64,000 nt of DNA, from IMG/VR virus record IMGVR_UViG_3300045988_140174, positions 34,574 to 98,573 of that record; one strand, given 5' to 3'. The notes under the pieces were generated by a model. That model saw only the letters and a list, made by a program, of their open reading frames with translations, did not search any database and had not been told where the DNA came from. Below are positions 29,013-64,000 of this stretch, one piece after another. The stretch comes from a virus. The stretch's first letter is position 1, and every line of letters begins with the position of its first letter. Position numbers and translations under genes: made by a program.

Positions 29013-29393
29013 ATGGCTAACACTAACACCACCACCCGCAAGCCCACCAAGCGCGATAATTTCACCGCCCTGCTGAAACTGTCCGAGGTCAAGGCTGACC
29101 CCAAGCTGGTGGAGTTCATCACCCACGAAATCGACCTGCTCGACCGCAAGAACACCGTGGACAAGAAGCCCACCAAGACCCAGCAGGAGAATGAGGTCAT
29201 CAAGACCACTGTCCTGTCCGCTATGGAGAGCAACCGGCTGTATTCTATCAGCGAGATGCTCAAAGAGTTCCCCGTCTGCAAGGACATGAGCAATCAGAAG
29301 CTGTCCTCCCTCGTCCGGCAGATGGTGCTGGATAAGCAGGTGGAGCGCGTGGAGGACAAGCGCAAGGCGTTCTTCCGCAAGGTGAGCGCGTAA
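29013..29393 (+). CDS. family-A protein, 126 aa (paralogs at 30202..30621 and 55655..56062)
   Basis: RBS GGAGAAAGGAATTGATACT-ATG; shared TKRDnFTAlL and LDRKNTVDKKPT motifs. Confidence 0.7.
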   Translation: MANTNTTTRKPTKRDNFTALLKLSEVKADPKLVEFITHEIDLLDRKNTVDKKPTKTQQENEVIKTTVLSAMESNRLYSISEMLKEFPVCKDMSNQKLSSLVRQMVLDKQVERVEDKRKAFFRKVSA

Positions 29394-29444
29394 ACCTCAA
29401 AGGGTGGGGAGCAATCCCCACCCTAACCCTGAAAGGAGTATCGC

Positions 29445-29801
29445 ATGACTGACCGAGTTGCCGACCTCATGCGAAAGCTGGATTGCACCGAAGCCGAAGC
29501 CAAGGACATTATCGTTCAAGATGCTATCATCGACAAAGGCGGCAATCCGTTTCCGCTGACCGAGGAGCAGGAAAAGGCAAGCAAGAAAGCGCGGGGAGTA
29601 GGACGCCAGCCGACCGCATACAAGTTCGCGCCAAGAGAAAAAAAGGCTAATCCCACAAAGCAGACTATCATCACTCTGCTGACCGAGACACTGACCACAT
29701 ACGGCGCGACTGACCTGAACGTGAGCAACGCGGAGCGCGAATTTTTATTCACGCTTGATGGAACAAAATACAAGGTTGTGCTGTCGTGCCCGCGCAAGTG
29801 A
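29445..29801 (+). CDS. family-B protein, 118 aa (paralog at 30683..31081)
   Basis: RBS TGAAAGGAGTATCGC-ATG; shared PTAYKF..RE.KANPTK motif. Confidence 0.7.
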   Translation: MTDRVADLMRKLDCTEAEAKDIIVQDAIIDKGGNPFPLTEEQEKASKKARGVGRQPTAYKFAPREKKANPTKQTIITLLTETLTTYGATDLNVSNAEREFLFTLDGTKYKVVLSCPRK

Positions 29802-29827
29802 GGGAGAGAAATCTCCCTCATTTTTTT
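29799..29827 (+). terminator. intrinsic terminator overlapping the stop
   Basis: TGAGGGAGAGAAATCTCCCTCA + T7. Confidence 0.8.
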
Positions 29828-29841
29828 GTGCATTTTGACTA

Positions 29842-29936
29842 TTGACAAACGCGCTCAAATGTGTTAAAATGGGTCGGGCGCTCACGGCTGTGGCGCCCGA
29901 AATTTCCATTATACCACGTGGCACAAATTTTGTCAA
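29842..29936. promoter_or_regulatory. composite element: plus promoter (TTGACA 29842-17-TAAAAT 29865), hairpin CGGGCGC-TCACGGCTGTG-GCGCCCG (29875..29899), face-to-face minus promoter (29908..29936 rc, TTGACA-17-TGGTATAAT)
   Basis: same architecture as 21473, 25674 and 28101. Confidence 0.6.
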
Positions 29937-30104
29937 GTGTTTTTTTGCACAAATTTTGGATGTTGAAAATCCCATTTTTTGTGAGTATTGACTATTGCAA
30001 TCTGCCCAAGGGTGTGGTAATATATAATTGTTCCAAGGGAGAGGGTAAGACCTCCCGGCGGGGCGTGTACCTCGAAAAAAATTCCACAAATCCGAAAAAA
30101 AGTC

Positions 30105-30133
30105 TTGACAAGGCTTCGGGTGTGTGTTATAAT
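30105..30133 (+). promoter_or_regulatory. promoter TTGACA-17-TATAAT
   Basis: consensus; leader ATAGATGTTCCAAGAGG has a 13-codon upstream ORF. Confidence 0.6.
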
Positions 30134-30201
30134 ATAGATGTTCCAAGAGGAAAACAACAATATGGTGGGCGACACCTAAAAACGCAGAAAGGGTTGATAC
30201 T

Positions 30202-30621
30202 ATGACTAACACTACTTCCACTGTGCGCCTGACCAAGCGCGACTACTTCACCGCCATTCTGTCCAAGGTGGATATGGACGCTACCTATGACATCCCCAAG
30301 GGTGATGCCATTGTCAAGGTTTCCGGTGCTGATGTGGCGGGCTTCCTGAACCACGAGCTGGACCTGCTCGACCGCAAGAACACCGTGGACAAGAAGCCGA
30401 CCGCCACGCAGGTGGCAAACGAGGGTATCAAGGCTGACATCAAGGCGTTCCTGGACGCCCACAAGGGCGAGAAGTACACCGTGTCCGCTCTGATGAAGTC
30501 TGTCCCCGCTATCGCCGATGCGTCCAATCAGAAGGTTTCTTCTCTGGTGCGTCAGATGGTGCTGGACGGTCAGGCAGACCGTATCGAGGATAAGCGCAAG
30601 GCGTATTTCACCGCCAAGTAA
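30202..30621 (+). CDS. family-A protein, 139 aa
   Basis: RBS GAAAGGGTTGATACT-ATG. Confidence 0.7.
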   Translation: MTNTTSTVRLTKRDYFTAILSKVDMDATYDIPKGDAIVKVSGADVAGFLNHELDLLDRKNTVDKKPTATQVANEGIKADIKAFLDAHKGEKYTVSALMKSVPAIADASNQKVSSLVRQMVLDGQADRIEDKRKAYFTAK

Positions 30622-30682
30622 GACATGAGGGGGGGAGACATTCTCCCCCCCTATCCTCTAAAATCTGAAAAGGCGGTGTTTT

Positions 30683-31081
30683 ATGGCTGAAATCTCCAAA
30701 ACTGAATGGCTGAAAAACGCTATGGCGAAAATGGGCTGGACGGCTGATGAAGCGGAAGCCGTGTGGAACTCTGACCGAGAAATCGACAAGGGCAAGAAGC
30801 AGGATTTTGACCTGTCGAAAGAACAGCTCAAAATCGCCCAAAAATTCGCCAAGACTGGCACACGCAAGACCCCCACCGCATACAAATTCACCACAAGGGA
30901 ACGCAAGGCAAATCCCACAAAAGCATCCATTATCGCTGAACTCGCAACATTTTTGACCGAAAACAGCGAAAATGCCTGCGAAAATGTGGAAATAACTAAC
31001 AAAGAGAGACAGATTGCATTTTCGGTTGGTGAAAATTCCTATGAACTGACCCTTGTGCAGAAGCGCAAGCCGAAAAGTTGA
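30683..31081 (+). CDS. family-B protein, 132 aa
   Basis: ORF; paralog of 29445..29801. Confidence 0.7.
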   Translation: MAEISKTEWLKNAMAKMGWTADEAEAVWNSDREIDKGKKQDFDLSKEQLKIAQKFAKTGTRKTPTAYKFTTRERKANPTKASIIAELATFLTENSENACENVEITNKERQIAFSVGENSYELTLVQKRKPKS

Positions 31082-31131
31082 GAAAATGGGGGAGAAATCC
31101 CCCATTTTCCCCGAAAAATGAGGAAAAAAGT

Positions 31132-31476
31132 GTGAAAAACAAGGAATTTTTGTATGTAGGGCACTATTATGATGAAAATGGCGTATACATTCTGAAAATA
31201 GGCACTACTAACAATTTAAAGCGCAGACAGCGGGAACATACCCACAACTACAAAGAGTCTCCGGTTTACCGTTTACCGAAAAATGGTAAGTTTATTTACG
31301 ATTTTTCGATACCGCTCTCTAAATACAACACTTTGCGATACGAGGACAAAAATCGTGAGCATTGGCAGAAAATGGGATACGGCGTGTTTGTGAGAAATGA
31401 CAGATTTGCCTGTCCTGTGAAGCCGAAGTCTGTTGAAATTACCATTCGTCGAACTTACCAAATCGCTCTCGATTGA
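31132..31476 (+). CDS. GIY-YIG nuclease-domain protein, about 114 aa (start codon uncertain: GTG 31132 or TTG 31078)
   Basis: motif GVYILKIGTTNNLKRRQREH; no dedicated promoter; follows hairpin 31086..31105. Confidence 0.55.
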   Translation: MKNKEFLYVGHYYDENGVYILKIGTTNNLKRRQREHTHNYKESPVYRLPKNGKFIYDFSIPLSKYNTLRYEDKNREHWQKMGYGVFVRNDRFACPVKPKSVEITIRRTYQIALD

Positions 31477-31503
31477 GGGCGATTTTTTTATTCAATTTGA
31501 CTA

Positions 31504-31561
31504 TTGACAACGCCCTCTGACTGTGGTATAATGGGTCGGGCGCTCACGATTGTGGCGCCCG
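31504..31561. promoter_or_regulatory. promoter (TTGACA 31504-17-TATAAT 31527) + hairpin CGGGCGC-TCACGATTGTG-GCGCCCG (31537..31561) + inverted TTGACA remnant
   Basis: degenerate copy of the composite element. Confidence 0.5.
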
Positions 31562-31622
31562 GCATTTTTGTCAATACACATTTTCAACAATTTTTCCGGC
31601 GAAAGTTTGTATAAATTGACTA

Positions 31623-31651
31623 TTGCATTTTGTCCCGAAATGCGCTATACT
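31623..31651 (+). promoter_or_regulatory. proximal promoter TTGCAT-17-TATACT
   Basis: spacing and hexamers. Confidence 0.5.
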
Positions 31652-31699
31652 ATAAACAATCTGAGGGAACTGGAACCCACCAACAGCAAGGAGGCATCT

Positions 31700-32311
31700 A
31701 TGAATAAGAGCCAGTTTTTTGACCACGAAATCGAGTTCATTCAGTCCGAGGATTTGCGCTCATTCGTGCGCTATTACTTCGACTGTATCGTTCCCGATTA
31801 TTTCTGGACTATCGGCGCGAGTTCTTCCGGCAAGTTCCATCCGGCTATGAGCCAAGGCGAGGGCGGTTTGGTGCGCCACACTAAGGCGGTGGCGTGGTTT
31901 TGTGAGGAATTGCTCCGCATGAGCCAGTGGGCGTATCTCACTGACGAGCGCAAGGACTATGCACGAGTTGCCTGTCTGCTCCACGATACAGCCAAGTATG
32001 GCTTACACGAGTTCGACAAGGAACAGTATGCCCAGCACGGCGCGATTGCCGCTGACCAAGTTTGCCGGACGTGGATGGTGTTTTTCAATGAGGACTGCCC
32101 CTACGAGCTGACGCAAGCCATCAAGTCCCACATGGGTCAGTGGACTACCAACAAGGCGGATAGACCTTTCACTCCTATCGACAGACTGGTACACATGGCT
32201 GACTATGTGGCAAGCCGTCCGTTTATCGACATTCCGGCAATCAACGCTGACTATAACGACAAGGCGGAACTGGACGAAATCTCGCCTGGACTGCCGTGGG
32301 AGGAGGAATAA
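31700..32311 (+). CDS. HD-domain phosphohydrolase (5'-deoxynucleotidase-like candidate), 203 aa
   Basis: H..(GKFHP), HD (LLHDTAKY), D (HMADYVAS) motif set; RBS CAAGGAGGCATCT-ATG. Confidence 0.65.
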   Translation: MNKSQFFDHEIEFIQSEDLRSFVRYYFDCIVPDYFWTIGASSSGKFHPAMSQGEGGLVRHTKAVAWFCEELLRMSQWAYLTDERKDYARVACLLHDTAKYGLHEFDKEQYAQHGAIAADQVCRTWMVFFNEDCPYELTQAIKSHMGQWTTNKADRPFTPIDRLVHMADYVASRPFIDIPAINADYNDKAELDEISPGLPWEEE

Positions 32312-32313
32312 TC

Positions 32314-32505
32314 GTGACCCTTAAATTTTACTTCAACGCTGACGAGAATATGTGTGCGAGCGAGCACTGGGTCATCCAGTATCTCCACATACAAAATCCC
32401 GACATAGACGAGGATGAAATCGAGGACGAACTCCGCTCCCGCCGGGAATATTTTGGCTGGTATGAGTGCCAAGTGTCCGATGACATTGAAGAAAAATTCT
32501 TTTGA
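32314..32505 (+). CDS. acidic small protein, 63 aa (GTG start)
   Basis: RBS GGAGGAGGAATAATC-GTG overlapping the upstream stop. Confidence 0.5.
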   Translation: MTLKFYFNADENMCASEHWVIQYLHIQNPDIDEDEIEDELRSRREYFGWYECQVSDDIEEKFF

Positions 32506-32507
32506 GA

Positions 32508-32538
32508 TTAAGGGTGGAGAAATCCACCCTTAATTTTT
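32508..32538 (+). terminator. intrinsic terminator
   Basis: TTAAGGGTGGAGAAATCCACCCTTAA + T6. Confidence 0.8.
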
Positions 32539-32552
32539 GTTTATTTTGCCTA

Positions 32553-32640
32553 TTGACAACGTGGGCCCGGTGTGGTATAATAAAAGGGGAGGGTACAACG
32601 GGCCGAGCGCGGGCGCTGCGGTCCGAAATTCCGATCTGTA
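32553..32640. promoter_or_regulatory. promoter (TTGACA 32553-17-TATAAT 32576) + GC-rich hairpin region; the antisense promoter is absent in this copy
   Basis: GGGCCGAGCGCGGGCGCTGCGGTCCGAAATTCC resembles the hairpin + GAAATTYC of the other copies. Confidence 0.45.
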
Positions 32641-32730
32641 CCCCCATATGGAAAATTTTTCGTGATTCTAGCGACCCTCATATGCGCGCCAAAAATCCCA
32701 AAAAGCCGAGCCCCGCTCGGTACCCATATG
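32638..32730. repeat. three CATATG motifs in about 90 bp, two embedded in GTACCC(CC)ATATG direct repeats
   Basis: CATATG at 32645, 32679 and 32725; GTACCC at 32638 and 32720. Confidence 0.5.
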
Positions 32731-32739
32731 CCGCCCGGT

Positions 32740-32825
32740 TTGACATAAAAAAAAATTTATGTTATAATGATAAAAAAAACCATTTTTTTTCTCACTTGAC
32801 TTTTAAAAAAATTTTTTGTATAATA
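32740..32825 (+). promoter_or_regulatory. two tandem promoters (TTGACA 32740-17-TATAAT 32763; TTGACT 32797-17-TGTATAAT 32820)
   Basis: consensus hexamers and spacing. Confidence 0.55.
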
Positions 32826-32856
32826 TATGTATACAAAATGAAAAGAGGTTATTTAT

Positions 32857-33231
32857 ATGAATAAGAACGATATTCTGACGCGCTTAATGAATGGCGAGAG
32901 CGCTGAGGATATTGCTAAGGAAATGACTGCGATGCTGAATGACGCCACCAAGGCATATGCTGACCAGAAGAAGGACAAGGAAAAGATGGCCCGAGCGGAA
33001 GCGGTTGCCGATGCTATCAACGACTATGCGGCCTACGTCGGCTATAAGGGCGCAGAGTTGAAGGGCGAGGACGTCATTAAGGTTATGGACAGTTTCCTTA
33101 AATTCTACAAGGACCCAGGTAATTTCAAGATTGAACTCCCCGGATTCCGTTTTGAAACAAACTCTAAGGGTGCGATTAAGAAGGGCAAAACCGTTGATGA
33201 AATTCTCAACGACTGGATTTCTCGCATTTAA
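32857..33231 (+). CDS. hypothetical protein, 124 aa
   Basis: RBS AAAAGAGGTTATTTAT-ATG. Confidence 0.65.
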   Translation: MNKNDILTRLMNGESAEDIAKEMTAMLNDATKAYADQKKDKEKMARAEAVADAINDYAAYVGYKGAELKGEDVIKVMDSFLKFYKDPGNFKIELPGFRFETNSKGAIKKGKTVDEILNDWISRI

Positions 33232-33244
33232 TTTCGATTAACGT

Positions 33245-33307
33245 GTCGGCCCAGGTATTTTTCATTTGGGAAATTGGCGATTAGAATACCTGGGCTCGAC
33301 GTTTTTT
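33245..33307 (+). terminator. strong intrinsic terminator closing the GC-rich block
   Basis: about 15-bp stem GTCGGCCCAGGTATT...AATACCTGGGCTCGAC + TTTTTT. Confidence 0.8.
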
Positions 33308-33612
33308 GGAAAGGGTATCTTGAAAAATTCAGAGGATGACGATAACGATGAAATTGAGTGATGAGTTGGTACCGAGCGGGGGCACCAAACTTCCATCATT
33401 TTTCAATTTTTCTATTATTATCATCATTCTACCATAATCATTTTGTTATTAAGAGAAAACATTATAAGTTCCATTATTCGTTGTTTACAATTATATTCAT
33501 CAACCCCGCTAATAGGTTTATTTAATTATGATTTAGTTTTTGTGGAGGTAAAACAATTAATCAAACCTCAGACTCAAAAAAACGTCATAAGTCAAAAAAA
33601 ACATCATTGGTT

Positions 33613-53769: not shown

Positions 53770-53803
53770 ATATATATAAGATGAAGAAAGGAAATGATAC
53801 AAA

Positions 53804-55543
53804 ATGAATCTGTATGACGCCCTGACTACGGAAGATATTGACCTGATTCGTGCTTACATTGAGGCATATGGCGGCAAGAATGATGAATATGATGCGACTG
53901 GTTGTTGTGTTCAGTCTATGCCGAATACGATGGCGCCGTGGGCAGAGGCTAAGGAGCGTCTCTATACGATGTTCGGTGAGCAGCTTATTCTGAGGAAGTC
54001 CTTTAACTTCTCTAAGGGCGTCGATGAGTTGGCCGATGAAATCAATGATGCTCGTTATCGCAGAGATGGCAATGGTATCTCTGAGATGGACAATTTGATT
54101 CGTGAAAATTTCTGGCCTCGGAATATTTATTCCGCTTTGGGTCTGGATGATGACCAGGCGGATAATATTTGTCGGCTGATTGATTCCTATATGCTGGCTA
54201 ATAACTCTTGGAGCCGCACTGAGTTCACTGTGAATGGCGTTCGTGTGAATACTGGTGCTAAGGCTGTGAAGATTCTGGGCAAGATTCTCGCCACTTTTGA
54301 GAACCCTGAGTGGAACGAAATCTTTGAGCAGTTCCGCCTGGAACATTCTCGTATTCTCAATCAGAAGAAGCTGACTGGCGAACTGTGCCTGTCTATTCAT
54401 CCTCTGGATTATATGACTATGAGTGATAACAACGAGGGTTGGGACAGTTGTATGAGCTGGCAGGCTTGCGGTGATTATCGTCAGGGCACCGTAGAGATGA
54501 TGAACTCTCCTTGTGTCGTGGTGGCATATCTGCGAAATCCCGGCTATGAGATGGACATTCCCGATGGTCATTGGAACAGCAAGAAGTGGCGTTGCCTGTT
54601 TGTTGTCGACCGCGATGTTATTGTTAATATCCGCGAGTATCCCTATTGTAATGATGAACTGGTAGGCGAGTGCCTGAATTGGTTGAAGAGCCTGGCCGAG
54701 AAGAACCTTCATTATCAGTATCGTGATACTACTTGTCGGTATCGCGCAGATTGCGAGAATAGTGTTCAGGTTGGCGAGAAGAAAATTCCTGTGAATTTTT
54801 CTACTGGTCATATGTATAGCGATTTCCGTTTTGAGCATCTGATGTATCTGAATGCCGCTCTGCCGGATAATATTAACATTTATTACTCTGGTGTGAGTGA
54901 GTGCCTGGGTTGCGGTAAGACTTCTAGCGGCTATGATGAAAGTCTCCTGAGTTCCAACGATTTGATTTGTCATAGCTGTAATGGCGATGGCGAATGCGAA
55001 GAGTGTGGTCGTTATTGCGATGCTGAGGAATTGTATGAGGTTGAGGGCCGTTTGATTTGTCAGAATTGCTATGATAACGAGACTGCTGAGTGTCCTGTTT
55101 GTCAGCGTGAGGTTGACCTCCACAATGAAAAGTGTGAAGATTGGCGCGACCAATTGCCTGACCCTGAACGCCATTTCATCCGTAGCGATAATACATTTGA
55201 AATCGCGTTCAATGGCTATATCACTCATCTTCACTTTGATACTCTGTGTGAGTGTTGTGCTAAGAAAATTCGTTCTGGCGAAATCAAGGATTATGGCCCC
55301 GTTGAGCAGTTTGTTGATAAGTGGAGCATTTCCCATACCTATCTGGATTTGGAGAAGATGACTGAGGACGCTGTTCAGGATGTTATTCCTTGGAACGGTA
55401 AGGGCTGGATGGAGCATCGCAGAGATAATCCTAACCGCAGTTGGGTAAGTCTCAAAACAGGATATTGCGATTTTGATAAGGGTTATTTCATTGATGAAGA
55501 CGGGAACGAAATCGAAAATCCTCGCAAAATCTTCTTCTCCTAA
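53804..55543 (+). CDS. large Cys-rich protein, 579 aa (paralog of 58165..59628); family unknown
   Basis: shared core LSIHPLDY...W.SC...Y..G......Y.......WNSKKWRCL...YPY; C-terminal zinc-ribbon cluster. Confidence 0.75.
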   Translation: MNLYDALTTEDIDLIRAYIEAYGGKNDEYDATGCCVQSMPNTMAPWAEAKERLYTMFGEQLILRKSFNFSKGVDELADEINDARYRRDGNGISEMDNLIRENFWPRNIYSALGLDDDQADNICRLIDSYMLANNSWSRTEFTVNGVRVNTGAKAVKILGKILATFENPEWNEIFEQFRLEHSRILNQKKLTGELCLSIHPLDYMTMSDNNEGWDSCMSWQACGDYRQGTVEMMNSPCVVVAYLRNPGYEMDIPDGHWNSKKWRCLFVVDRDVIVNIREYPYCNDELVGECLNWLKSLAEKNLHYQYRDTTCRYRADCENSVQVGEKKIPVNFSTGHMYSDFRFEHLMYLNAALPDNINIYYSGVSECLGCGKTSSGYDESLLSSNDLICHSCNGDGECEECGRYCDAEELYEVEGRLICQNCYDNETAECPVCQREVDLHNEKCEDWRDQLPDPERHFIRSDNTFEIAFNGYITHLHFDTLCECCAKKIRSGEIKDYGPVEQFVDKWSISHTYLDLEKMTEDAVQDVIPWNGKGWMEHRRDNPNRSWVSLKTGYCDFDKGYFIDEDGNEIENPRKIFFS

Positions 55544-57124: not shown

Positions 57125-58165
57125 ATGCGAGTGATGAAAGATTCTGAGTATCTAGCATTTAAGCAGTTAGCCAAGCTCACTCAAGATCAAATGATTAGGG
57201 CTATGCGTGCGGTGTTAGAGGCTCGTTATACCGATATTATCGCAACAAAGGAATATATTGTAGCCAAGGGAGATATTCCTATCGGATTGGTTGCCCATAT
57301 GGATACAGTGTTCCCGCTTCCTCCTACTGAAATTTATTATGATACTACACAAAATGTTGTGTGGAGTCCGCAGGGTCTTGGAGCTGATGACCGCGCCGGT
57401 ATATTTGCGATTCTTCAAATTCTGAAGACTACAAAATTGCGTCCGCATATTATTTTGACAACTGATGAAGAGAAGGGCGGATGGGGCGCATACGCCCTTG
57501 TTGAACAGCATCCAGATTTTCCGTTTGATGATTTGAAATATCTGATTCAGTTGGACCGCCAGGGCGCGAATGATTGTGTGTTTTATGATGGTATCAATGA
57601 AGATTTTATCCGTTATGTATCTTCTTTTGGTTTCGTAGAGCATATTGGTTCATTCAGCGATATTAGTATTCTGTGTCCATTCTGGGATGTGTGCGGTGTC
57701 AATCTTTCTGTCGGTTATAAAAATGAGCATAGTCTCATTGAAACATTAAATATTAGCCATTTGTTCGATACCATCCAAAAGGTGAAGAGAATGTTAATGG
57801 TGAAGGAAATTCCTGACTTTGAGTGGAAGGAAAAATACTATCCTTATTTCACTAATGGGTATCCTCTGGATGATGACATTGATGAGTATAGCGCGGCTTA
57901 TGGTTATAATTGGGTAAATGATAAACGCTCTGTTGATGCTTATACAGTAATTTGTCATAATTGTAAGAAGCCATTTTATAATTATGAAACATTCCCCACT
58001 AAGAAAATTGATGGTGGAACTATGTTCTTGTGCCCCGATTGTGTGGGCGACCATGCTAATTGGTGCGATTGTTGTGGCGAAGCATTTGAGCGTACACCGG
58101 AAAATGCCGGGGCTACTCTTTGCCCTGACTGTGCGAAAATTGAGAAGATTAAGGTTAAAGGTTAA
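57125..58165 (+). CDS. M20/M42-family metallopeptidase-like protein with C-terminal zinc-ribbon domain, 346 aa
   Basis: GLVAHMDTV, GADDRAG, TTDEEKGGWGA, GYKNEHS metal/catalytic motifs; C-terminal CHNC...CPDC...CDCC...CPDC. Confidence 0.65.
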   Translation: MRVMKDSEYLAFKQLAKLTQDQMIRAMRAVLEARYTDIIATKEYIVAKGDIPIGLVAHMDTVFPLPPTEIYYDTTQNVVWSPQGLGADDRAGIFAILQILKTTKLRPHIILTTDEEKGGWGAYALVEQHPDFPFDDLKYLIQLDRQGANDCVFYDGINEDFIRYVSSFGFVEHIGSFSDISILCPFWDVCGVNLSVGYKNEHSLIETLNISHLFDTIQKVKRMLMVKEIPDFEWKEKYYPYFTNGYPLDDDIDEYSAAYGYNWVNDKRSVDAYTVICHNCKKPFYNYETFPTKKIDGGTMFLCPDCVGDHANWCDCCGEAFERTPENAGATLCPDCAKIEKIKVKG

Positions 58166-59628
58166 TGAAGAGTTATAATTTAGATGAACTAAAACAGCAA
58201 GTCAAACACGTATTAGAGTATAGTCAGGGTATTTATGATGTGAGTGAGGACGCTCTTGATAATATGATGAGTGAATGGGAGCGTAATAAAGCACGATTCA
58301 TTAATGATTTTATGGGCGGCAAACTCATTGTGGAGTTGCCAGGCAAACGCTCCTTTCATTTGGGAGAAAAGGCAAAACTCAAGAAATACAATGATTTTTT
58401 GGATTATGTTGTTCTGCGAATGAATAATTATGAGTTATGCCGATTTATTGAAGCGCAGGGCGAAGAAGGATTTTATGAGAACACCGTAAAAACTGGTTGG
58501 GACCATACTAAGAGTGATACATTTATTTCGCCGGGATCTAAACTAATACGAGCATTTAAATATTTCATTGAAGATAAGGATTTGCTGGAAACTGTTCAGA
58601 ATGAGGCCAGTCGTATTATTCAAGGAGACTGTATCGAAGGCATTCTTTGTATATCAGTCCATCCTCTTGATTACCTCAGTTTAAGTGAAACTACATATAA
58701 CTGGCGTTCTTGCCATGCTCTTGATGGCGAATATCGCGCTGGTGATTTGAGTTATTTGATGGATGGTAGCACATTTATCTGTTATCTGAGAGGCGATGAT
58801 AAACAAAACCTCCCTTCATTTCCCGATGATTTGCTCTGGAATAGTAAGAAGTGGCGTTGTTTGGGCTTCTTGGCTGATGATGAAAATGGTATCATTATGG
58901 GCCGTCCTTATCCCTATGAGGCCGCAGATATTATTAATGAACTTCGTTGGGAAGTGTTTAATAGAGAATGGAATTTGGGCCTTGGTAGTTGGCGCGCAGA
59001 CGCCATTCGTTCGGTTCAAGACCGCTTAACTAACTGGGATGAAGATTTGAATCGTACTTATATCCCTTGGAATGGCCGTCTTGTAGAACTTGATAAAACT
59101 GTTCATGATTGTCCAAGTCCTACTCATTATAATGATATTCTTTTATCCAGTTGTTATTTGCCTATTTATGCTCGTGGTAAAGGATATTTTGGCAAAAATG
59201 ATTGGAAGAAGGTTCAGTATCATATTGGACACTCAGTAATGTGTATCCATTGTAATTCTGAGTATGTGTCTCCTGGTGATGGCACGATGATGTGCCATTC
59301 TTGTGAGATTAGATATGGCAATTCTGACAGTGATGATATTGTTTATTGTGAGAATTGCGGTTGTCGTTTATGGTATGAAGACGCAATTGTTGTTGGAGAC
59401 AATGGAAATTATCTTTGTGATGAATGCGCTAGTAGAATCACTAAAACTTGTAGAGATTGCGGTAATCCATATTACATTGATGATTTAACATACCATAAAG
59501 ATGATGAAGATGAAAACGGCGGATATTATTTGTGCGGATGGTGCGAGCAAGATAGACAGGACACGGAAGAAATCGCAGAAGATGAATCTTCTACTACTAC
59601 TATCAACTTTGATGAGTTTGATCTGTAG
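58165..59628 (+). CDS. large Cys-rich protein, 487 aa (paralog of 53804..55543)
   Basis: shared HPLDY/WNSKKWRCL/YPY core and zinc ribbons. Confidence 0.75.
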   Translation: MKSYNLDELKQQVKHVLEYSQGIYDVSEDALDNMMSEWERNKARFINDFMGGKLIVELPGKRSFHLGEKAKLKKYNDFLDYVVLRMNNYELCRFIEAQGEEGFYENTVKTGWDHTKSDTFISPGSKLIRAFKYFIEDKDLLETVQNEASRIIQGDCIEGILCISVHPLDYLSLSETTYNWRSCHALDGEYRAGDLSYLMDGSTFICYLRGDDKQNLPSFPDDLLWNSKKWRCLGFLADDENGIIMGRPYPYEAADIINELRWEVFNREWNLGLGSWRADAIRSVQDRLTNWDEDLNRTYIPWNGRLVELDKTVHDCPSPTHYNDILLSSCYLPIYARGKGYFGKNDWKKVQYHIGHSVMCIHCNSEYVSPGDGTMMCHSCEIRYGNSDSDDIVYCENCGCRLWYEDAIVVGDNGNYLCDECASRITKTCRDCGNPYYIDDLTYHKDDEDENGGYYLCGWCEQDRQDTEEIAEDESSTTTINFDEFDL

Positions 59629-59747
59629 TCATTAAATACAAGACCTATATATTATATACACGATGAAAATGGCGAATGGATACCTATTACGCGAGTGCGT
59701 CAAATACCTCCGCCAGAACGTGAATAATTATTTAAATATTTAAGGAG

Positions 59748-60046
59748 TGATTATTATAGCACGCGGAAGTATTGCTAAGGAAAATGTCGCTAAAGTGCTT
59801 GCTGAATCATTTGGCAAGGACTGGATTGGCGAGTCTGATAAGAAATATTATGTTTGGGCTAATGATGGCGGTGAGCGCGTTCAAATCGCTATTAGTTTGA
59901 CCTGTCCAAAGAATCCAGTAGGAGCCGCAATATCTCCTACAAGTAATGAAATCAATTTTGAGGCCGAGCCTGAGAGACCTGTAATGGAGATTACTCCTGA
60001 TGAACAGGAAATGATTGACAGACTTAAGGCTGAATTGAATCTTTAA
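59748..60046 (+). CDS. hypothetical protein, 99 aa (GTG start)
   Basis: RBS TAAGGAG-GTG. Confidence 0.55.
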
Positions 60047-60050
60047 TATA

Positions 60051-60085
60051 ATGAGATAAGTCATTTGACTTATCTCATTTTTTTT
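60051..60085 (+). terminator. intrinsic terminator
   Basis: ATGAGATAAGTCA-TT-TGACTTATCTCAT + T7. Confidence 0.8.
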
Positions 60086-60125
60086 GTTATAATTTAAATA
60101 GAATTAGATTATAAGGAGATTTAAA

Positions 60126-60827
60126 ATGTATAATCAAATTATTGAAGAATTAGAAGTTCTTAAATAGAATTTTGATAGTGAAGATATTGTATCATATCAA
60201 TTACTTTTAATTAAAATTAAGAAAATTATTGATTTGATTAATGATAAACAACTTGAGGAAGCAGATAAAAGCAAATTATCTAATTATATTCGAGATTATT
60301 TAGCAAGTTTGCATTTAAATAGAATTTTCACAATTTCTGATTTGAATGAATTATTTATTCCAGAAGTGAAAGATTTAGATATTGGTAATAAAAATATTTA
60401 TATTACAATTTTTAATTTATTCGTGGAAGAATTATCTGATGTAGATAATATTTTTTCTCAAAAACTTAAATACTGTATTACAAATATGATTTCTAGAATT
60501 GCTGCTTCTGTAGATGAAACAATGGTTACAGAAGATAAAACTCAAGAAACTGTAATTAATGAACCTGTTCAAATTATTCCAACTATAAATACAGTAAATA
60601 CTAATTCATTCGATTTGGATATTGATATTACTAATAAAAATTATTTGAAAGAATATATTATGCGTAAAAATTTAAAACCTTATAGATGTGATATTTGTGG
60701 ATTAAGTTCCTGGCAAAACAATCCTCTTATGCTATATTTATACAGTAAAAATCATATTTATTCAAATAAAAATTTAGAAAATTTGATGTTTTTATGCCCT
60801 AATTGCTATTCTCAGATTGGAGAGTAA
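60126..60827 (+). CDS. HNH-like endonuclease-domain protein, 233 aa, 1 in-frame TAG
   Basis: C-terminus YRCDICGLSSWQNN...LYSKNHIYSNKNLENLMFLCPNCY; RBS TAAGGAGATTTAAA-ATG. Confidence 0.5.
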
Positions 60828-60830
60828 TTT

Positions 60831-62018
60831 ATGTATTATAATTCTTATAATTAGAATTATTTTAATGAATTAAATAAAATATTCAATAAATTTGATACTA
60901 ATAATATTAATGATTATTATAATTTATTTAAATTAATATATGATATATATTTTAATGAAAATGTATTTATAATTGTTAATGATGATATAAAATATCAATT
61001 AGAATCAAATTTAAAATTACTTATTAAAAAAAATAATTGGTTTATAGATTTTGAACAAACTGAAAAAAATATATTAATTTCATTATTTATTATAATTACT
61101 TAGAAAATTAATTTTGGAAATTATTATCAAATTAATAATACATTAAAACAATAGATTGAATCATTATTATTAGATAAAAATTTAATTAATGAAAAAATGA
61201 TTCATGATAGTAAAAATGTTTTTCATTTAGTTGATAGTTTTCCTGAAAATGAAAGTATGATTAAATTTTTTAAGCAATATAATATTGATATTATGAATTA
61301 GGAATTTTTAACTATTGGTAATACGAAAATTCCTAATTTTTATTTAAAACAAAAAAATAAAATGATAGATCATTATTATGAATTTTGCCATTTATTATTT
61401 AAAATTTATAGTCCAATCTTATATTATGGTGTTTCATTTGAAGAAGGATATGAATATAAAATAACTAATAAAGATATTGTATTTGATTGTGGCGGAAATA
61501 TGGGACTATTCGCGCTATACTGTGCTTCAAAAGGCGCGCAAGTATATTGTTTTGAGCCTATGTCTTATATTAGAGATTTTTTATATGAGAGTCAAAAATT
61601 ATATCCTGATTTAATCCATATTATTCCTTGTGGAGTGTTTAATAGAAATTAGGAACAATATTTTTCTCAAACCTATAATCCAGGAGCTGGATCGAATTCA
61701 ATATTTCATGAATTAGAATATACATCTGATAGATTATATAAAGAAAAATGTAAGTTAATTACATTAGATTCATTTAGTTAGAATAATCATATTATTCCTA
61801 CATTTATTAAAGCAGATATTGAAGGGTCTGAAGCACAAATGCTTGAAGGCGCTTCACAAATTTTACAAACATATAAACCAACTATGAATATTTGTTTAAA
61901 TCATCGGACGGAAGACCAATATAATATTCCTACCCTTATTTATAATATCAATTCTAATTATTCATTTTATTATTTTATTGAAGGAGAAATACATTCTAAA
62001 TTTGTATTGTGTAAATAA
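60831..62018 (+). CDS. FkbM-family SAM-dependent methyltransferase with a 177-aa N/I/K/Y-rich N-terminal extension, 395 aa, 6 in-frame TAG
   Basis: DCGGNMGLFALY...FEP and IKADIEGSE motifs; single frame from ATG 60831 through track ORF 61362..61652 to TAA 62016. Confidence 0.55.
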
Positions 62019-62020
62019 AT

Positions 62021-62974
62021 ATGCCAAATATTATTTTAACAGAATATTGTAATCTTCAATGCCCTTACTGTTTTGCTAGTAAAATGATTGAAGAAAAAAC
62101 AGATGATACTAAAAATATTTCTCTTGAATAGTTAGATATGATTTTAAAATGGTTATTACCTTCAGCAACAAATTTAGATCGGATTGGATTAATTGGAGGA
62201 GAACCTACTTTACATCCTTAGTTTAGAGAGATATTAGGTAGAATAAATTCATTTAATGAATTTACAAATACTTCTTCAATAGTATTTACGAATGGAATTA
62301 ATTTAAGTGAATTTTTATCTGCTATTGGACCAAATATGTCAATTTTAATTAATGTAAATAAATTGACTGGTAAATCATTAAATAAACTTAATAGTGTATT
62401 AGATGAAATTAATTATTTAAGTTGGTTTAAAATTGATAAAGTTATTTTAGGATGTAATTTATATCAAAATGAAAATGATTATTCTTATTTTTGGAATGTA
62501 GTTGATAAATATCCAGATATTTTAAGAATAAGAATGTCTATTACTGCACCCAATAGCAAAGAATTAAGAGTAAATAAAAAATTGTATTATACTATTATGA
62601 AACCTATATTATTACAATTTTTAGAAGAAACTAAAAAACGTGATATAAAAATTTCATATGATTGTAATTAGATTCCGTTATGTTTATTAAACAATGAAGA
62701 ATAGAATTTAATAAATCAATTAGGGGAATTAAATAGTTTTTGTGAGCCCGTTATAGATATTACTCCAGATTTTAAAGCTACTTGCTGTTTTGGTGTTTAT
62801 GATAATCCCATTCAATGTAATGATTTTAATAATATCGAAGAATTAACTAGATATTTTAAAAATCAAATAGTAATAAAAACTATAAATAATAACACTTCCA
62901 TGTGCAAAGATTGTAAAAAATTACAACTTGCTCAATGTCAAGGAGGATGTTTATCATTTTCTAATGTTGGGTAA
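62021..62974 (+). CDS. radical SAM enzyme with C-terminal SPASM/twitch domain, 317 aa, 4 in-frame TAG
   Basis: CNLQCPYC (Cx3Cx2C), GGEPTLHP; C-terminal CCFGVY...C...CKDCKKLQLAQCQGGC. Confidence 0.7.
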
Positions 62975-63032
62975 GTATAAGTAATAAAGTTTTATAATTT
63001 TTTAATTCTAAAAAAGAAGGAGGAATTTTTTT

Positions 63033-63470
63033 ATGGCAAATATTACTTATGAATTAATTTTTAAATTTGCTTCTGGTAAAGAGGTAAATTTTATCGATGA
63101 AGAACATACATTTTCTATTGTAGAAGATTATCGTTCTCCAGTTCTTTTAACCCCTCAAATGTTTGGTATTGATGATTTACGTGAGTATTATGCATTATTA
63201 TTAATTGATGGTAAGCCTATGGAGGATTATGCATCAAATTATTGTAATTTTAAAAATTTTGGTAATTCTATTGTTGATTTGCTTAATAATAAAGATACTA
63301 TTTCAGAAATTATTTTAAAAGATATTGATACTAAAGGAGAATATTTTCATATAAATTCTGATCAATTAGTAGGTATTGAAGCTGGCGGAGGAACTGATAG
63401 AGGCTTTGATAATATAATGGTATACCGCATACAAATTTATTATAAAAAAGTTGGAAAAATAGGTGAGTAA
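63033..63470 (+). CDS. hypothetical protein, 145 aa
   Basis: RBS AAGAAGGAGGAATTTTTTT-ATG. Confidence 0.65.
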   Translation: MANITYELIFKFASGKEVNFIDEEHTFSIVEDYRSPVLLTPQMFGIDDLREYYALLLIDGKPMEDYASNYCNFKNFGNSIVDLLNNKDTISEIILKDIDTKGEYFHINSDQLVGIEAGGGTDRGFDNIMVYRIQIYYKKVGKIGE

Positions 63471-63472
63471 TA

Positions 63473-64000
63473 ATGGGAGCTAATGCTACATCTGCGGGTA
63501 ATTTAGTTAAACTATCTGATTTAGATGCGCTATATTTACGTTTATATAATTTAAAAGTAGCTCATATTAATGATGCAGATTAGATTAATAAACCTGCTCT
63601 AACAGTTCCACCCAAAAGTAGTGGATTAACCCAAGGTAATAAAGTAGAAGTTTCAACCGCTAAAATTGCTACATTAAAATCTGAACTAGCAAATTTAGCT
63701 CAATCAAAATGGTATTAGTCTAATACGGAGAATACTATAGTAACAATGACAGATTTTAGTACAAATATTAAAGTACCTAATGTAGGAGATTTATTAAAAA
63801 GCGTAGATTTTAATTTAATTGAAACTGCTATTACCTCTGCTGAAACTATTATACCTACTTATTCAAATAAATATAATACTCGTTATAGTTTTTGTTATAG
63901 TGGTCATTATAGTTCTGATTATAGTGCCTGTTATGATAGTCGTTATGGTACTTGTTATAGTAATTGTTATGGAGGCCGTTATAGTACTCGATATGGTACT
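63473..64000 (+). CDS. partial (5' end only) protein with Tyr-every-4th-residue Cys-rich repeat, more than 175 aa, 2 in-frame TAG
   Basis: RBS AGGTGAGTAATA-ATG; RYSF CYSG HYSS DYSA CYDS RYGT CYSN CYGG RYST RYGT at the window edge. Confidence 0.55.

What the first reader, a model, noticed from the sequence alone, without database searches (positions are those of the whole stretch)
60831..64000. Phage-encoded radical SAM/SPASM enzyme + FkbM methyltransferase next to a protein with a (C/R/H/D)-Y-(S/G)-x tetrapeptide repeat: candidate protein or peptide modification system
The radical SAM gene has Cx3Cx2C, GGEP and a C-terminal SPASM-type Cys cluster, the hallmark of peptide-modifying maturases (sactipeptide, ranthipeptide, anSME). 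It is directly preceded by an FkbM-type methyltransferase carrying a 177-aa low-complexity N/I/K/Y extension. It is followed by a 145-aa unknown and a protein whose visible C-terminus is a strict Tyr-every-4th-residue, Cys-rich repeat (RYSF CYSG HYSS DYSA CYDS RYGT CYSN CYGG RYST RYGT) running off the window. Cys/Tyr repeats are plausible substrates for radical SAM thioether or C-C crosslinking and O-methylation. All these genes use recoded TAG, i.e. they are late. I know of no described phage structural-protein crosslinking system of this composition.
Basis: partly seen in the sequence, partly recalled or inferred. Interest (0 to 1): 0.8.

Follow-up and report, generated by a model that had tools for sequence, protein, structure and literature searches.

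The report
Phage enzyme cluster modifying tyrosine-repeat protein
The end of this window is the start of a large late-gene cluster in a gut-type phage in which a radical SAM enzyme, whose relatives nearly always sit next to tyrosine-rich repeat proteins, most likely chemically modifies a floppy tyrosine-every-fourth-residue tail; I found no description of such a phage system.

Summary
Window 60126-64000 holds five tightly packed + strand genes in a 21-25% GC block that reads TAG as sense: an HNH-like protein, an FkbM methyltransferase, a 317-aa radical SAM enzyme, a 145-aa unknown, and a protein whose tail has Tyr at 12 consecutive 4-residue steps.

A 97%-identical contig completes that protein (206 aa). 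It also shows seven more genes downstream: two further radical SAM enzymes, a SPASM protein, a small unknown and three GT8-like glycosyltransferases. More distant relatives add YcaO.

The radical SAM model (pLDDT 91) is closest to anSME, SuiB and the cyclophane synthase ChlB. It has eight invariant extra Cys and no leader-binding domain.

The key result is comparative. A same-strand Tyr-rich repeat ORF lies close to this enzyme's homologs, usually directly adjacent, in 13 of 19 distinct phage loci, against 1 of 52 control loci. Distant bacterial relatives sit in RiPP-type clusters with Tyr-rich peptides and PqqD.

Tyr (sometimes Phe) is conserved in the tails; Cys is not. Thioether chemistry is therefore unlikely, and aromatic C-C (cyclophane-type) crosslinking is my best guess. 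A virion role is unproven. This is a new variant of a known kind.

The parts
60050..60093 (+). Terminator-like hairpin (60050-60079) of the upstream standard-code gene. It overlaps the best promoter-like site of the region (60065-60093). This is the likely start of the recoded transcription unit.
   Evidence: The hairpin has a 13-bp stem plus a T run and is the only terminator-like site in 59600-64000. The promoter-like site matches 11 of 12 positions and has TG before the -10 hexamer. These are consensus matches only.
60126..60827 (+). First gene of the cluster, 233 aa with 1 in-frame TAG in the gene (3 in the wider open frame 60093-60827, two of them upstream of the ATG). The C-terminal 60 aa form an HNH-endonuclease-like zinc ribbon. 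The N-terminal part is unknown.
   Evidence: PHROG phrog_10822 (HNH endonuclease) E=4.9e-15 over residues 168-231. An ortholog occupies the same position before FkbM in L001, L003, L005 and L007. Whether it belongs functionally to the system is inferred from position alone.
60831..62018 (+). FkbM-family SAM-dependent methyltransferase, 395 aa with 6 TAG. It carries an N-terminal extension (about residues 1-140 to 215) specific to this clade.
   Evidence: TIGR01444 E=1.6e-18, 67.6 bits against a cut-off of 37.7. PF05050 E=4.8e-8. The extension is 49% identical to the L003 ortholog (E=2e-49) and absent from the 254-262 aa orthologs in L005, L007 and L009.
62021..62974 (+). Radical SAM enzyme, 317 aa with 4 TAG, with a SPASM-like C-terminal domain carrying eight invariant Cys. 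It has no N-terminal RRE. It is a member of an uncurated family linked to Tyr-rich repeat proteins.
63033..63470 (+). 145-aa protein of unknown function with 0 TAG. Its stop lies 2 nt before the start of the repeat-protein gene.
   Evidence: No hit in Pfam, NCBIfam or PHROGs. A small ORF of 94-148 aa occupies this slot in L003, L005, L007, L009 and L088. BLASTP finds no similarity between them.
63473..63856 (+). Conserved N-terminal domain (about 128 aa, helical) of the repeat protein.
   Evidence: Alignments A4 and A6. AF2 gives pLDDT 70-88 for residues 10-130, with three long helices. About 45 clusters at 50% identity share this domain.
63857..64000 (+). Tyr-every-4th-residue tail, Y-[S/G]-x-[R/C/H/D], cut by the window end. 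By comparison with L001 the gene continues for about 93 more bases and ends ...CYSCYGCYGCYRRYSSRYGRYAAKNVQIRC.
   Evidence: The tail is predicted disordered, pLDDT about 30. Repeat number (19-31 Tyr) and composition vary between relatives, while Tyr or Phe periodicity is kept.

Best explanation
The last 3.9 kb of the window is the head of a late, TAG-recoded operon of at least 12 genes in a large phage. The operon matures one small protein in a RiPP-like manner. That protein has a conserved helical domain of about 128 aa, followed by a hypervariable, intrinsically disordered tail with an aromatic residue (here Tyr) at every fourth position.

The 317-aa radical SAM enzyme is built like anSME. 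The SAM-cluster motif starts at residue 10. There is no leader-binding RRE. The compact SPASM-like domain has eight conserved Cys, enough to fully ligate two auxiliary [4Fe-4S] clusters.

I propose that the enzyme binds the disordered tail directly. It would reductively cleave SAM and abstract a side-chain hydrogen from a residue next to each Tyr. The carbon radical would then add to the aromatic ring. Repeated along the tail, this would give a ladder of small cyclophane-type C-C crosslinks that rigidify and protease-proof it.

The FkbM methyltransferase, the further radical SAM/SPASM proteins and the GT8 glycosyltransferases encoded just beyond the window would decorate the same tail. In relatives YcaO would do so as well.

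What is shown: the gene content, the fold class, the recoding, and the conserved linkage between this enzyme family and Tyr-rich repeats. What is inferred: that the tail is the substrate (about 0.75), that the chemistry is aromatic C-C crosslinking (about 0.35), and that the product is a virion or surface component (about 0.45).
For: 1. Synteny. FkbM, rSAM, small ORF(s), repeat protein, then a rSAM-like protein of about 478 aa, a SPASM protein of about 405 aa and a protein of about 120 aa, are kept in L001, L003/L004 and L005/L006. The set recurs, rearranged and with YcaO, in L007 and L009.

2. Linkage to Tyr-rich repeats. A same-strand Tyr-rich ORF (at least 9 Tyr in 40 aa) lies close to the rSAM homolog, in most cases directly adjacent, in 13 of 19 distinct phage loci. 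In L018 it lies 1.2 kb upstream, and in the window clade one or two small ORFs intervene. These loci span 25-56% GC and carry unrelated repeat types: YSxx, YSQ/YSN, DTPYRDY, YAYNKTYAN and SYGGYYNSN. Among control loci that hold other radical SAM genes the count is 1 of 52. Fisher p = 6e-9. The gene gaps are often 3-38 nt (L002, L008, L014, L015, L017).

3. Bacterial relatives. Relatives at 24-35% identity sit in RiPP-type clusters. Some have an NHLP-like leader followed by (F/Y)YPIR repeats, and those enzymes carry an extra C-terminal stretch of about 120 aa that looks PqqD-like by eye (not tested; L057, L058, L060). Others have small peptides ending SLYYYY or SLYYYH next to a PqqD chaperone (NF033530, E=1e-13) (L062, L065, L108).

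5. Substrate pattern. Across about 45 tail-protein clusters the aromatic periodicity is kept, while Tyr can be replaced by Phe and Cys comes and goes. This fits chemistry on the ring or a neighbouring C-H, not on the phenol OH or a thiol.

6. Disorder. The tail is predicted disordered, as radical SAM peptide substrates are.

7. Timing. The cluster has its own promoter-like and terminator-like boundary. It uses the same recoding as the portal and terminase genes of the window.
Against: - The SPASM domain is not recognised by Pfam, or by a C-terminal profile search of the PDB.
- Six of 19 phage loci lack an adjacent Tyr-rich ORF. L010 and L019 place the enzyme beside lysis, gyrase and sugar-nucleotide genes instead.
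- L088, a Phe-type tail cluster, shows no ortholog of this enzyme within 7 kb. The tail family can therefore be served by the other enzymes.
- Several units in the window tail have Gly two residues after Tyr. This is incompatible with a strict Tyr to X3 C-beta cyclophane at those units.
- No evidence places the protein in virions.
Confidence: 0.55

Rival explanations
1. The product is a diffusible phage-encoded RiPP natural product rather than a modified phage protein. The conserved 128-aa N-domain would be a long leader. The hypervariable tail would be the core, which is modified, cut off and released as a toxin, signal or lysis or host-manipulation factor. The enzymology would be as in the best explanation; only the role differs.
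For: - The pattern of a conserved N-region with a hypervariable C-region is the classic precursor signature.
- Bacterial relatives of the enzyme are in genuine leader, core and PqqD clusters.
- YcaO and several radical SAM/SPASM enzymes are typical RiPP tailoring sets.
- Four tail proteins carry a C-terminal intein/Hint self-cleaving domain, which shows the tail end is processed.
- An M28-like peptidase gene lies three genes upstream in conserved synteny.
Against: - No dedicated leader protease, transporter or immunity gene is seen in the recoded cluster.
- The other partners of this enzyme family in phages are large proteins of 230-680 aa. Some have FN3- or Ig-like domains and lie next to giant fibre-like genes, so they are not peptides.
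- The enzyme has no RRE, and the N-domain is far longer than known leaders.
Confidence: 0.25
2. The system is centred on glycosylation. The Tyr-rich tail would be an acceptor for GT8 enzymes, which are glycogenin-type (glycogenin glucosylates a Tyr). The radical SAM enzyme and FkbM would tailor the sugar or the nucleotide-sugar donor rather than the peptide.
For: - GT8-like genes co-occur with the enzyme in L001 (three), L003, L008 and L010.
- L010 adds a heptose-nucleotide-type pathway: SIS isomerase, GHMP kinase, HAD phosphatase, nucleotidyltransferase and epimerase.
- L088 has a rSAM::GT2 fusion, of a different radical SAM type.
- From general knowledge, FkbM-family enzymes often O-methylate sugars.
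Against: - Tails in which Phe replaces Tyr have no hydroxyl to glycosylate.
- Many rSAM and Tyr-rich pairs have no GT8 within 8 kb (L002, L014-L018).
- Eight conserved Cys fit two auxiliary clusters. From my own recollection, not checked here, that is typical of peptide-modifying SPASM enzymes, whereas twitch sugar enzymes carry one cluster.
- The bacterial relatives sit with PqqD and short peptides, not with sugar genes.
Confidence: 0.12
3. This is the first reader's chemistry: Cys-to-carbon thioether (sacti- or ranthipeptide-type) crosslinks between the Cys and neighbouring residues of the CYSx units, plus Tyr O-methylation by FkbM.
For: - The window-clade tail is Cys-rich, with 9 Cys in 79 residues.
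- PapB, CteB, SkfB and QhpD-like models give weak hits to cluster enzymes.
- A terminal Cys is conserved in this clade.
Against: - Cys is absent from the L005 tail and scarce or absent in many family members, yet the enzyme is kept.
- The other Tyr-rich partners (L008, L014-L017, L022) have almost no Cys.
- All thioether-maturase models score far below their cut-offs, for example PapB 28 bits against 340.
- Thioethers could still be a clade-specific extra, made by one of the other radical SAM enzymes.
Confidence: 0.06
4. The chemistry is splicease-type. [quoted passage not shown] The small neighbouring protein would play the role of the Y accessory protein.
For: - Spliceases are radical SAM enzymes that act on XYG motifs. 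They can work on proteins without a leader and may need a small Y protein (PMC11414181).
- The tail has Y-G in 3 of 12 visible units, and Gly is the second commonest residue after Tyr in the family.
- A small ORF lies between the enzyme and its substrate.
Against: - Ser, not Gly, is the main +1 residue. Period-3 tails (YSQ, YSN) and the FN3-type partners lack YG.
- Phe-type tails exist.
- I could not test sequence similarity to a splicease, because none of the libraries searched returned a splicease model.
- The small ORFs are not conserved in sequence.
Confidence: 0.05

Closest known systems
Anaerobic sulfatase-maturating enzyme (anSME, PDB 4K36)
   Different: Sequence identity is 15%. The TIGR03942 score is 26.6 bits against a cut-off of 349. 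The Cys spacing differs: C-x5-C, C-x14-C and C-x2-C-x7-C-x3-C, with no trailing Cys. The protein is about 60 aa shorter. The likely substrate is a Tyr repeat, not a C/S-x-P/A-x-R sulfatase motif.
Three-residue cyclophane-forming enzymes and triceptides (e.g. ChlB, PDB 9GM3; MicB)
   Different: There is no RRE and no short leader peptide. The YhhB-type model scores 20 bits against a cut-off of 445. The tails hold 19-31 tandem units on a folded domain. The window clade has period 4 and a variable third residue that includes Gly. The host is a phage, and crosslinks are not demonstrated.
SuiB (streptide) and PqqE: radical SAM/SPASM enzymes that join an aliphatic carbon to an aromatic ring
   Different: Both use a PqqD-type RRE, fused or separate, and a single crosslink site. 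Sequence models are far below their cut-offs, for example PqqE 21 bits against 381.
Tyramine spliceases (PlpX/PlpY, RhaX)
   Same: These are radical SAM enzymes that target Tyr in short motifs. They can modify whole proteins without a leader, and some need a small partner protein.
   Different: They require X-Y-G, and precursors carry NHLP or Nif11 leaders. Here Ser dominates after Tyr, and Phe can replace Tyr.
Stop-codon-recoded (TAG to Gln) gut phages
   Same: In-frame TAGs are concentrated in low-GC blocks that include the portal, terminase and this cluster. Q is the commonest aligned residue at 3 of 4 TAG sites in the enzyme.
   Different: No suppressor tRNA lies in this window. The link between recoding and late expression is taken from general knowledge and was not tested here.

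Membership tests
Radical SAM superfamily | CX3CX2C cluster motif and a Pfam PF04055 match above the gathering score | tested here: met
   C10-x3-C14-x2-C17 is invariant in 63 homologs. PF04055 scores 43.1 bits against a cut-off of 29.5.
Radical SAM superfamily | GGE-type SAM-binding motif and a partial TIM-barrel fold | tested here: met
SPASM/twitch subfamily | Match to the SPASM sequence models (PF13186, TIGR04085) | tested here: not met
   Pfam gave no PF13186 hit at E<=1. TIGR04085 was not among the 25 NCBIfam hits shown, of 43 in all. The C-terminal profile A5 finds no SPASM chain in the PDB. The distant bacterial relative in L062 does reach TIGR04085 at E=9e-5.
SPASM/twitch subfamily | Seven-Cys motif CX9-15GX4C, gap, CX2CX5CX3C, gap, C | tested here: inconclusive
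   The family has a variant: C215-x5-C221, C241-x14-C256(FG), then C295-x2-C298-x7-C306-x3-C310, with no trailing Cys. The eight invariant Cys could fully ligate two clusters. The number of clusters is not testable here.
SPASM/twitch subfamily | C-terminal domain fold like that of solved SPASM enzymes | tested here: met
anSME (TIGR03942) | Score above the curated cut-off | tested here: not met
   26.6 bits against 349.45, over the N-terminal 90 residues only.
Triceptide maturases (3-CyFE) | Substrate with aromatic-X-X motifs | tested here: met
   The tails are tandem arrays of Y/F-X-X(-X). This is a resemblance in the presumed substrate, not proof of the reaction.
Triceptide maturases (3-CyFE) | RRE domain, leader peptide recognition, and a match to curated maturase models | tested here: not met
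   The core Cys starts at residue 10, so there is no N-terminal domain. The YhhB model scores 20 bits against 445. There is no PqqD hit in the window proteins.
Triceptide maturases (3-CyFE) | -2 Da C-C crosslink between the ring and C-beta of the third residue | not testable with these tools
   This needs mass spectrometry or NMR of the co-expressed product.
Sactipeptide/ranthipeptide maturases | Conserved Cys donors in the substrate, and a match to curated models | tested here: not met
   There are 0 Cys in the L005 tail, and Cys is variable or absent elsewhere. PapB scores 28 bits against 340, and CcpM 22 against 500.
Tyramine spliceases | X-Y-G splice motif in the substrate | tested here: inconclusive
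   Gly follows Tyr in 3 of 12 visible units. Ser is commoner, and period-3 and FN3-type partners lack YG.
FkbM methyltransferase family | Score above the TIGR01444 and PF05050 cut-offs | tested here: met
   67.6 bits against 37.7, and 33.8 bits against 22.7.
RiPP-type precursor (leader plus core) | Conserved N-terminal region, hypervariable C-terminal region, and co-located tailoring enzymes | tested here: met
   Alignments A4 and A6 show it. The N-domain motifs are kept down to about 20% identity, while tails differ in period, length and residue type. Clusters are described.
RiPP-type precursor (leader plus core) | Leader protease and/or exporter in the cluster | tested here: not met
   None was recognised among the cluster proteins in Pfam, NCBIfam or PHROGs. 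Only an M28-like peptidase lies outside the recoded block.
Phage virion / tail-fibre protein | Homology or fold similarity to known structural proteins | tested here: not met
   The phrog_9648 'tail protein' hit holds for 1 of 40 members. Foldseek against BFVD found nothing at E<=0.001. hhalign against the S74-bearing L025 protein gave probability 0.6%.
TAG-to-Gln recoded phage genes | Multiple in-frame TAGs in otherwise intact conserved genes, with Gln at the aligned positions | tested here: met
   There are 6, 4 and 2 in-frame TAGs in the FkbM, rSAM and repeat genes. Q is the commonest residue at 3 of 4 sites. This is partly circular, because database homologs may have been called with code 15.

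The most novel reading that the evidence does not exclude
Large phages of anaerobic habitats carry a dedicated RiPP-like assembly line: a leaderless radical SAM/SPASM enzyme, further radical SAM enzymes, glycosyltransferases, a methyltransferase and sometimes YcaO. On this reading it turns disordered Tyr/Phe-periodic tails of phage surface proteins into covalently laddered, glycosylated rods. That would be an oxygen-independent counterpart of dityrosine or DOPA hardening, and a previously unknown class of viral structural-protein modification.
Probability: 0.25. Interest if true: 0.9.

Novelty: new variant of a known kind. Interest (0 to 1): 0.78.

Why it matters
If correct, this would extend radical SAM peptide maturation from small leader-tagged bacterial peptides to whole proteins encoded by phages.

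It would define an uncurated enzyme family. At least 443 clusters at 90% identity were found, and none reaches a curated NCBIfam cut-off. The family has a simple, recognisable substrate signature: an aromatic residue every third or fourth position.

The system is directly testable with two or three genes and a mass spectrometer. A leaderless enzyme that installs many crosslinks along a repetitive tail would interest protein engineers.

For phage biology, it points to heavy post-translational chemistry in recoded late gene blocks of gut and rumen-type phages. That chemistry could affect virion stability, adhesion or host range.

Tried and rejected
1. PHROG 'tail protein' identity for the repeat protein. 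The hit was E=0.002 in one sequence and held for only 1 of 40 family members. Rejected as evidence.
2. Fold search of the repeat-protein model against viral structures. Nothing was significant.
3. Homology between the N-domain family and the Cys-rich, Peptidase_S74-bearing neighbour of truncated homologs (L025). hhalign gave probability 0.6%. Rejected.
4. The idea that the 270-aa 'EFPYNFD...DRGWPT' paralogs are U32-type anaerobic hydroxylases that would make DOPA. Pfam and NCBIfam gave no support. Left open and unsupported.
5. Sequence-level proof of SPASM with a C-terminal profile against the PDB. The only hit was a spurious glutaredoxin match.
6. Homology among the small ORFs in the slot of the 145-aa gene. 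BLASTP found none.
7. A suppressor tRNA or any Rfam RNA in the window. None was found.
8. Annotated phage records. Only weak N-terminal radical SAM matches turned up in three phage records (two uncultured 735-kb metagenomic phages and Synechococcus phage S-SCSM2R).
9. Eight literature searches for phage Tyr-rich repeat and radical SAM systems, phage RiPPs and viral cyclophanes. Nothing relevant was found. The library covers open-access papers only.
An 89%-identical database homolog was used instead.
11. The reciprocal test from the substrate side. Two of the three look-ups fell on contigs of 1-2 kb. The third (L088) kept the YcaO/380/475/450 set but showed no ortholog of the 317-aa enzyme within reach.


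Full report
**What is in the sequence**

Window 60001-64000 has 21-25% GC, against about 40% in the preceding 24 kb. Under the standard bacterial code the + strand is broken into short ORFs. With TAG read as sense it becomes five tightly packed genes:
- 60126-60827, 233 aa
- 60831-62018, 395 aa, 6 TAG
- 62021-62974, 317 aa, 4 TAG
- 63033-63470, 145 aa, 0 TAG
- 63473 to beyond 64000, 176 aa visible, 2 TAG

Gene gaps are 2-3 nt except for one of 58 nt.

A 13-bp hairpin with a T run (60050-60079) closes the upstream standard-code gene. It overlaps the best promoter-like site of the region (60065-60093). The block therefore looks like its own transcription unit. These are consensus matches only.

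Reading TAG as Gln is consistent with Q being the commonest residue in homologs at 3 of the 4 TAG sites of the radical SAM gene. No suppressor tRNA lies in the window.

The other low-GC recoded block of the window (1-17.6 kb) holds the portal (phrog_2739, E=8e-82, 9 TAG), a terminase-like protein and a virion structural protein. The cluster thus shares its code with head and packaging genes.

- The FkbM call holds. TIGR01444 scores 67.6 bits against a cut-off of 37.7, and PF05050 hits at E=4.8e-8.
- The FkbM N-terminal extension is rich in N, I, K and Y (47%). It is nevertheless a conserved sequence, 49% identical to the L003 ortholog at E=2e-49. It is absent from the 254-262 aa orthologs of L005, L007 and L009.
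- The radical SAM call holds. PF04055 scores 43.1 bits against 29.5, and CX3CX2C lies at residues 10-17 with GGEP at 59-62.
- The SPASM call is not seen by Pfam, and a C-terminal profile finds no SPASM chain in the PDB.
- However, eight further Cys are invariant in 63 homologs: 215, 221, 241, 256, 295, 298, 306 and 310.
- A full-length profile aligns to anSME over residues 10-311, E=2e-6.
- The enzyme is therefore a SPASM-like variant by fold and Cys count, but not by sequence model. It has no N-terminal RRE.
- All curated NCBIfam maturase, viperin and MoaA models hit only the N-terminal 100 residues and score far below their cut-offs.
It has 12 consecutive Tyr at period 4. The next-longest chain in any frame of the 64 kb is 5, and that is the repeat's own antisense. 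The chance estimate is about 5e-15. TRF finds a 12-nt array.

**Extending beyond the window**

IMG/VR contig UViG_3300045988_141926 (L001, 128 kb) is 96.9% identical over these 4 kb. It completes the repeat protein at 206 aa. The protein ends ...CYSCYGCYGCYRRYSSRYGRYAAKNVQIRC.

The operon continues with these genes:
- a 478-aa radical SAM-like protein (motif CDLKCSYC)
- a 405-aa protein with a SPASM domain (TIGR04085, E=3e-5) that has lost its SAM-cluster Cys
- a 122-aa protein
- a 467-aa radical SAM enzyme
- three GT8-like glycosyltransferases, one of them fused to a 270-aa domain of unknown function

The same order recurs around homologs at 58% identity (L003/L004). There a 599-aa YcaO is inserted just upstream of the cluster, before the HNH-like gene, and the cluster carries two C-terminal radical SAM enzymes. 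It also recurs at 49% identity (L005/L006). L007 and L009 (47% and 43%) keep the set with FkbM, YcaO and the enzyme rearranged.

**The repeat-protein family**

Close homologs (57 clusters) and a profile search of 1.8 billion representatives (171 hits, about 45 with the N-domain) define a family. It has a conserved N-domain of about 128 aa followed by a hypervariable tail.

AF2 predicts the N-domain as helical (pLDDT 70-88) and the tail as disordered (pLDDT about 30).

Tails differ in length (19-31 aromatic residues), period and residue type:
- Y-[S/G]-x-[R/C/Q/K] at period 4
- YSN or YSQ at period 3
- Phe-based units such as NFSS, SFNS and FTSN

Cys is common in the window clade. It is absent from the L005 tail and from many others.

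At least five members carry a C-terminal intein/Hint domain directly after the tail: the L009 protein (PF14890, E=6.6e-12, above the cut-off) and, by eye from their sequences, P0191, P0194, P0200 and P0201.

No evidence places the protein in virions. The single 'tail protein' PHROG hit holds for 1 of 40 members. Foldseek against viral structures found nothing. hhalign against an S74-bearing neighbour protein was negative.

**The decisive comparative result**

I collected loci around homologs of the 317-aa enzyme from IMG/VR, from assemblies and from metagenomes. I scanned them for ORFs with at least 9 Tyr in any 40 residues.

Among 19 distinct phage-branch loci, 13 have such an ORF on the same strand close to the enzyme gene, in most cases directly adjacent. 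It is often only 3-38 nt away; in L018 it is 1.2 kb upstream, and in the window clade one or two small ORFs intervene. These include phages of very different composition (25-56% GC) and tails that are unrelated in sequence:
- the N-domain family
- FN3- or Ig-bearing proteins of 230-680 aa with 17-29% Tyr (L008, L014-L018)
- a 577-aa protein with DTPYRDY repeats lying among tail-fibre-like genes (L002)
- SYGGYYNSN-type repeats (L022, L096)

Among 52 loci picked up by the same scans but carrying unrelated radical SAM genes, one has such an ORF. Fisher p = 6e-9.

Bacterial genomes hold relatives at 24-35% identity. Several of these are in RiPP-type clusters:
- an NHLP-like leader followed by (F/Y)YPIR repeats; the enzymes there carry an extra C-terminal stretch of about 120 aa that looks PqqD-like by eye, which I did not test (L057, L058, L060)
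- tandem enzyme paralogs with a PqqD chaperone (NF033530, E=1e-13) and short peptides ending SLYAGGLYVECSLYYYY or SLYSLYYTSLYYYH (L062, L065, L108)

None reaches a curated family cut-off. The enzyme family as a whole is therefore an uncharacterised maturase lineage for aromatic-rich sequences. Its phage branch has lost the RRE and sits beside Tyr-rich regions of whole proteins.

**Mechanism**

Shown: the fold class, the Cys inventory, the absence of an RRE, the predicted disorder of the tail, and the linkage.

Inferred: the tail is the substrate (about 0.75). The conserved feature is a periodic aromatic ring that may be Tyr or Phe, while Cys and the +1 to +3 residues vary. Chemistry that needs a thiol or the phenol oxygen is therefore unlikely to be the family's core reaction.

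The known SPASM reactions on aromatic residues are C-C crosslinks from a neighbouring side-chain carbon to the ring. Examples are streptide (SuiB) and triceptides (ChlB, MicB; motif aromatic-X-X). PQQ (PqqE), from my own recollection, is another.

My best guess (about 0.35) is iterative formation of small cyclophanes along the tail. Gly at the third position of some units argues against a strict triceptide pattern.

Tyramine splicing (X-Y-G) fits only the minority of Y-G units.

The GT8 genes, the L010 sugar-nucleotide pathway and a rSAM::GT2 fusion in L088 show that glycosylation is part of many of these systems. They support a rival in which the enzyme tailors sugars. Phe-type tails, loci without GT8 and the bacterial PqqD clusters argue against that as the general role.

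**Limits**

- Six of 19 phage loci lack an adjacent Tyr-rich ORF (L010, L019, L020, L021, L024, L025).
- L021 and L025 pair a truncated homolog with a Cys-rich, S74-bearing fibre-like protein.
- L088 shows that the tail family can occur without this enzyme nearby.
- The small ORF between enzyme and substrate is conserved in position only.
- No relevant paper was found in eight full-text searches. That library lacks most subscription journals, so prior description cannot be excluded.

**Verdict**

It is best classed as a new variant of a known kind, namely radical SAM/SPASM maturation. It has an unusual substrate class and an unusual phage host. It is directly testable.

Noticed in passing
window 1-64000: The window is a compositional and coding mosaic. 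Low-GC blocks (1-17.6 kb at about 30%, 34-36 kb at 28%, 60-64 kb at 21-25%) carry many in-frame TAGs. Blocks at 18-33.5 kb (45-50% GC) and 36-60 kb (about 40%) use the standard code. Within the recoded head block, some genes have no TAG at all, for example 6235-7377 and 1050-2153.
   Followed up: partly
window 18000-33500: About 15 kb at 45-50% GC has no ORF longer than 259 aa under any plausible stop-codon set. It has many overlapping 90-250 aa ORFs on both strands. No tRNA and no Rfam family were found. It looks like a dense array of small genes but was not analysed.
   Followed up: partly
L009 13063-14013; proteins P0191, P0194, P0200, P0201: In several relatives the aromatic tail is followed directly by a C-terminal intein/Hint domain (the L009 protein hits PF14890 at E=6.6e-12; the other four were judged by eye). 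There is no C-extein nucleophile: the L009 protein ends ...VVHNAVYKRGVI. This suggests self-cleavage at the end of the tail, and possibly transfer of the tail's C-terminus to another molecule.
   Followed up: partly
L001 12050-12073 (beyond the window end); proteins P0121-P0171: In the window clade the repeat protein ends in a conserved ...K-x-V-Q-I-R-C, with Cys as the very last residue. Other clades end differently (...YRTAFTV, ...YLNRC). The meaning of the terminal Cys is unknown.
   Followed up: no
L062 about 9328-9501, L065 10231-10371, L108 1268-1456; L057 7348-7896, L058, L060: Bacterial relatives of the enzyme lie beside apparently undescribed precursor types. One type is short peptides ending SLYYYY or SLYYYH, with a PqqD chaperone and two tandem enzyme paralogs. 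The other is NHLP-like leaders followed by (F/Y)YPIR repeats, in Acidobacteria and Anaerolineae.
   Followed up: partly
L010 9049-16993: One phage places the enzyme between a Mom-like protein (PF25680) and a GT8-like gene. These are followed by a complete-looking heptose-nucleotide pathway (GHMP kinase, HAD phosphatase, epimerase, nucleotidyltransferase, SIS isomerase), a UPF0489-like protein and another GT8, all next to gyrase genes. No Tyr-rich ORF is nearby.
   Followed up: no
L007 16375-18839; L003 17729-18556; L001 16445-17986: A family of about 270 aa (EFPYNFD...IYLPPF...DRGWPT, with a C-x3-C-x-G-x2-HW motif) is present in three tandem paralogs in L007. In L001 it is fused to a GT8 domain. 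It has no hit in Pfam, NCBIfam or PHROGs.
   Followed up: partly
L088 1504-3456: A 650-aa fusion of a radical SAM domain (of the type of the 467-aa enzyme of L001) with a GT2 glycosyltransferase sits in a cluster built around a Phe-periodic (SFNS) tail protein.
   Followed up: partly
window 53798-55543, 57125-58165, 58165-59628: Just upstream of the cluster, in standard code, lie two apparently similar proteins (582 and 487 aa; similarity judged by eye, not tested) whose C-terminal parts are rich in C-x2-C pairs. An M28-like peptidase homolog lies between them. This trio is kept in synteny in L001, L003 and L005.
   Followed up: no
window 63829-64000 minus strand; L001 11829-12062 minus strand: The Tyr repeat creates a long antisense ORF rich in Y, N and H, because TAT/ATA periodicity reads through on the other strand. 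This would mislead ORF callers and Tyr-richness scans that ignore strand.
   Followed up: yes
L021 6814-9498; L025 8001-10946: Truncated homologs of the enzyme (282 aa, lacking the last Cys cluster) are followed by a 416-aa radical SAM/SPASM enzyme. Next comes a protein with a Cys/Gly-rich tail (CNVCNTSCQNCQSDCD...GGCYCGGCSGC). In L025 that protein ends in a Peptidase_S74 tail-fibre chaperone domain.
   Followed up: partly
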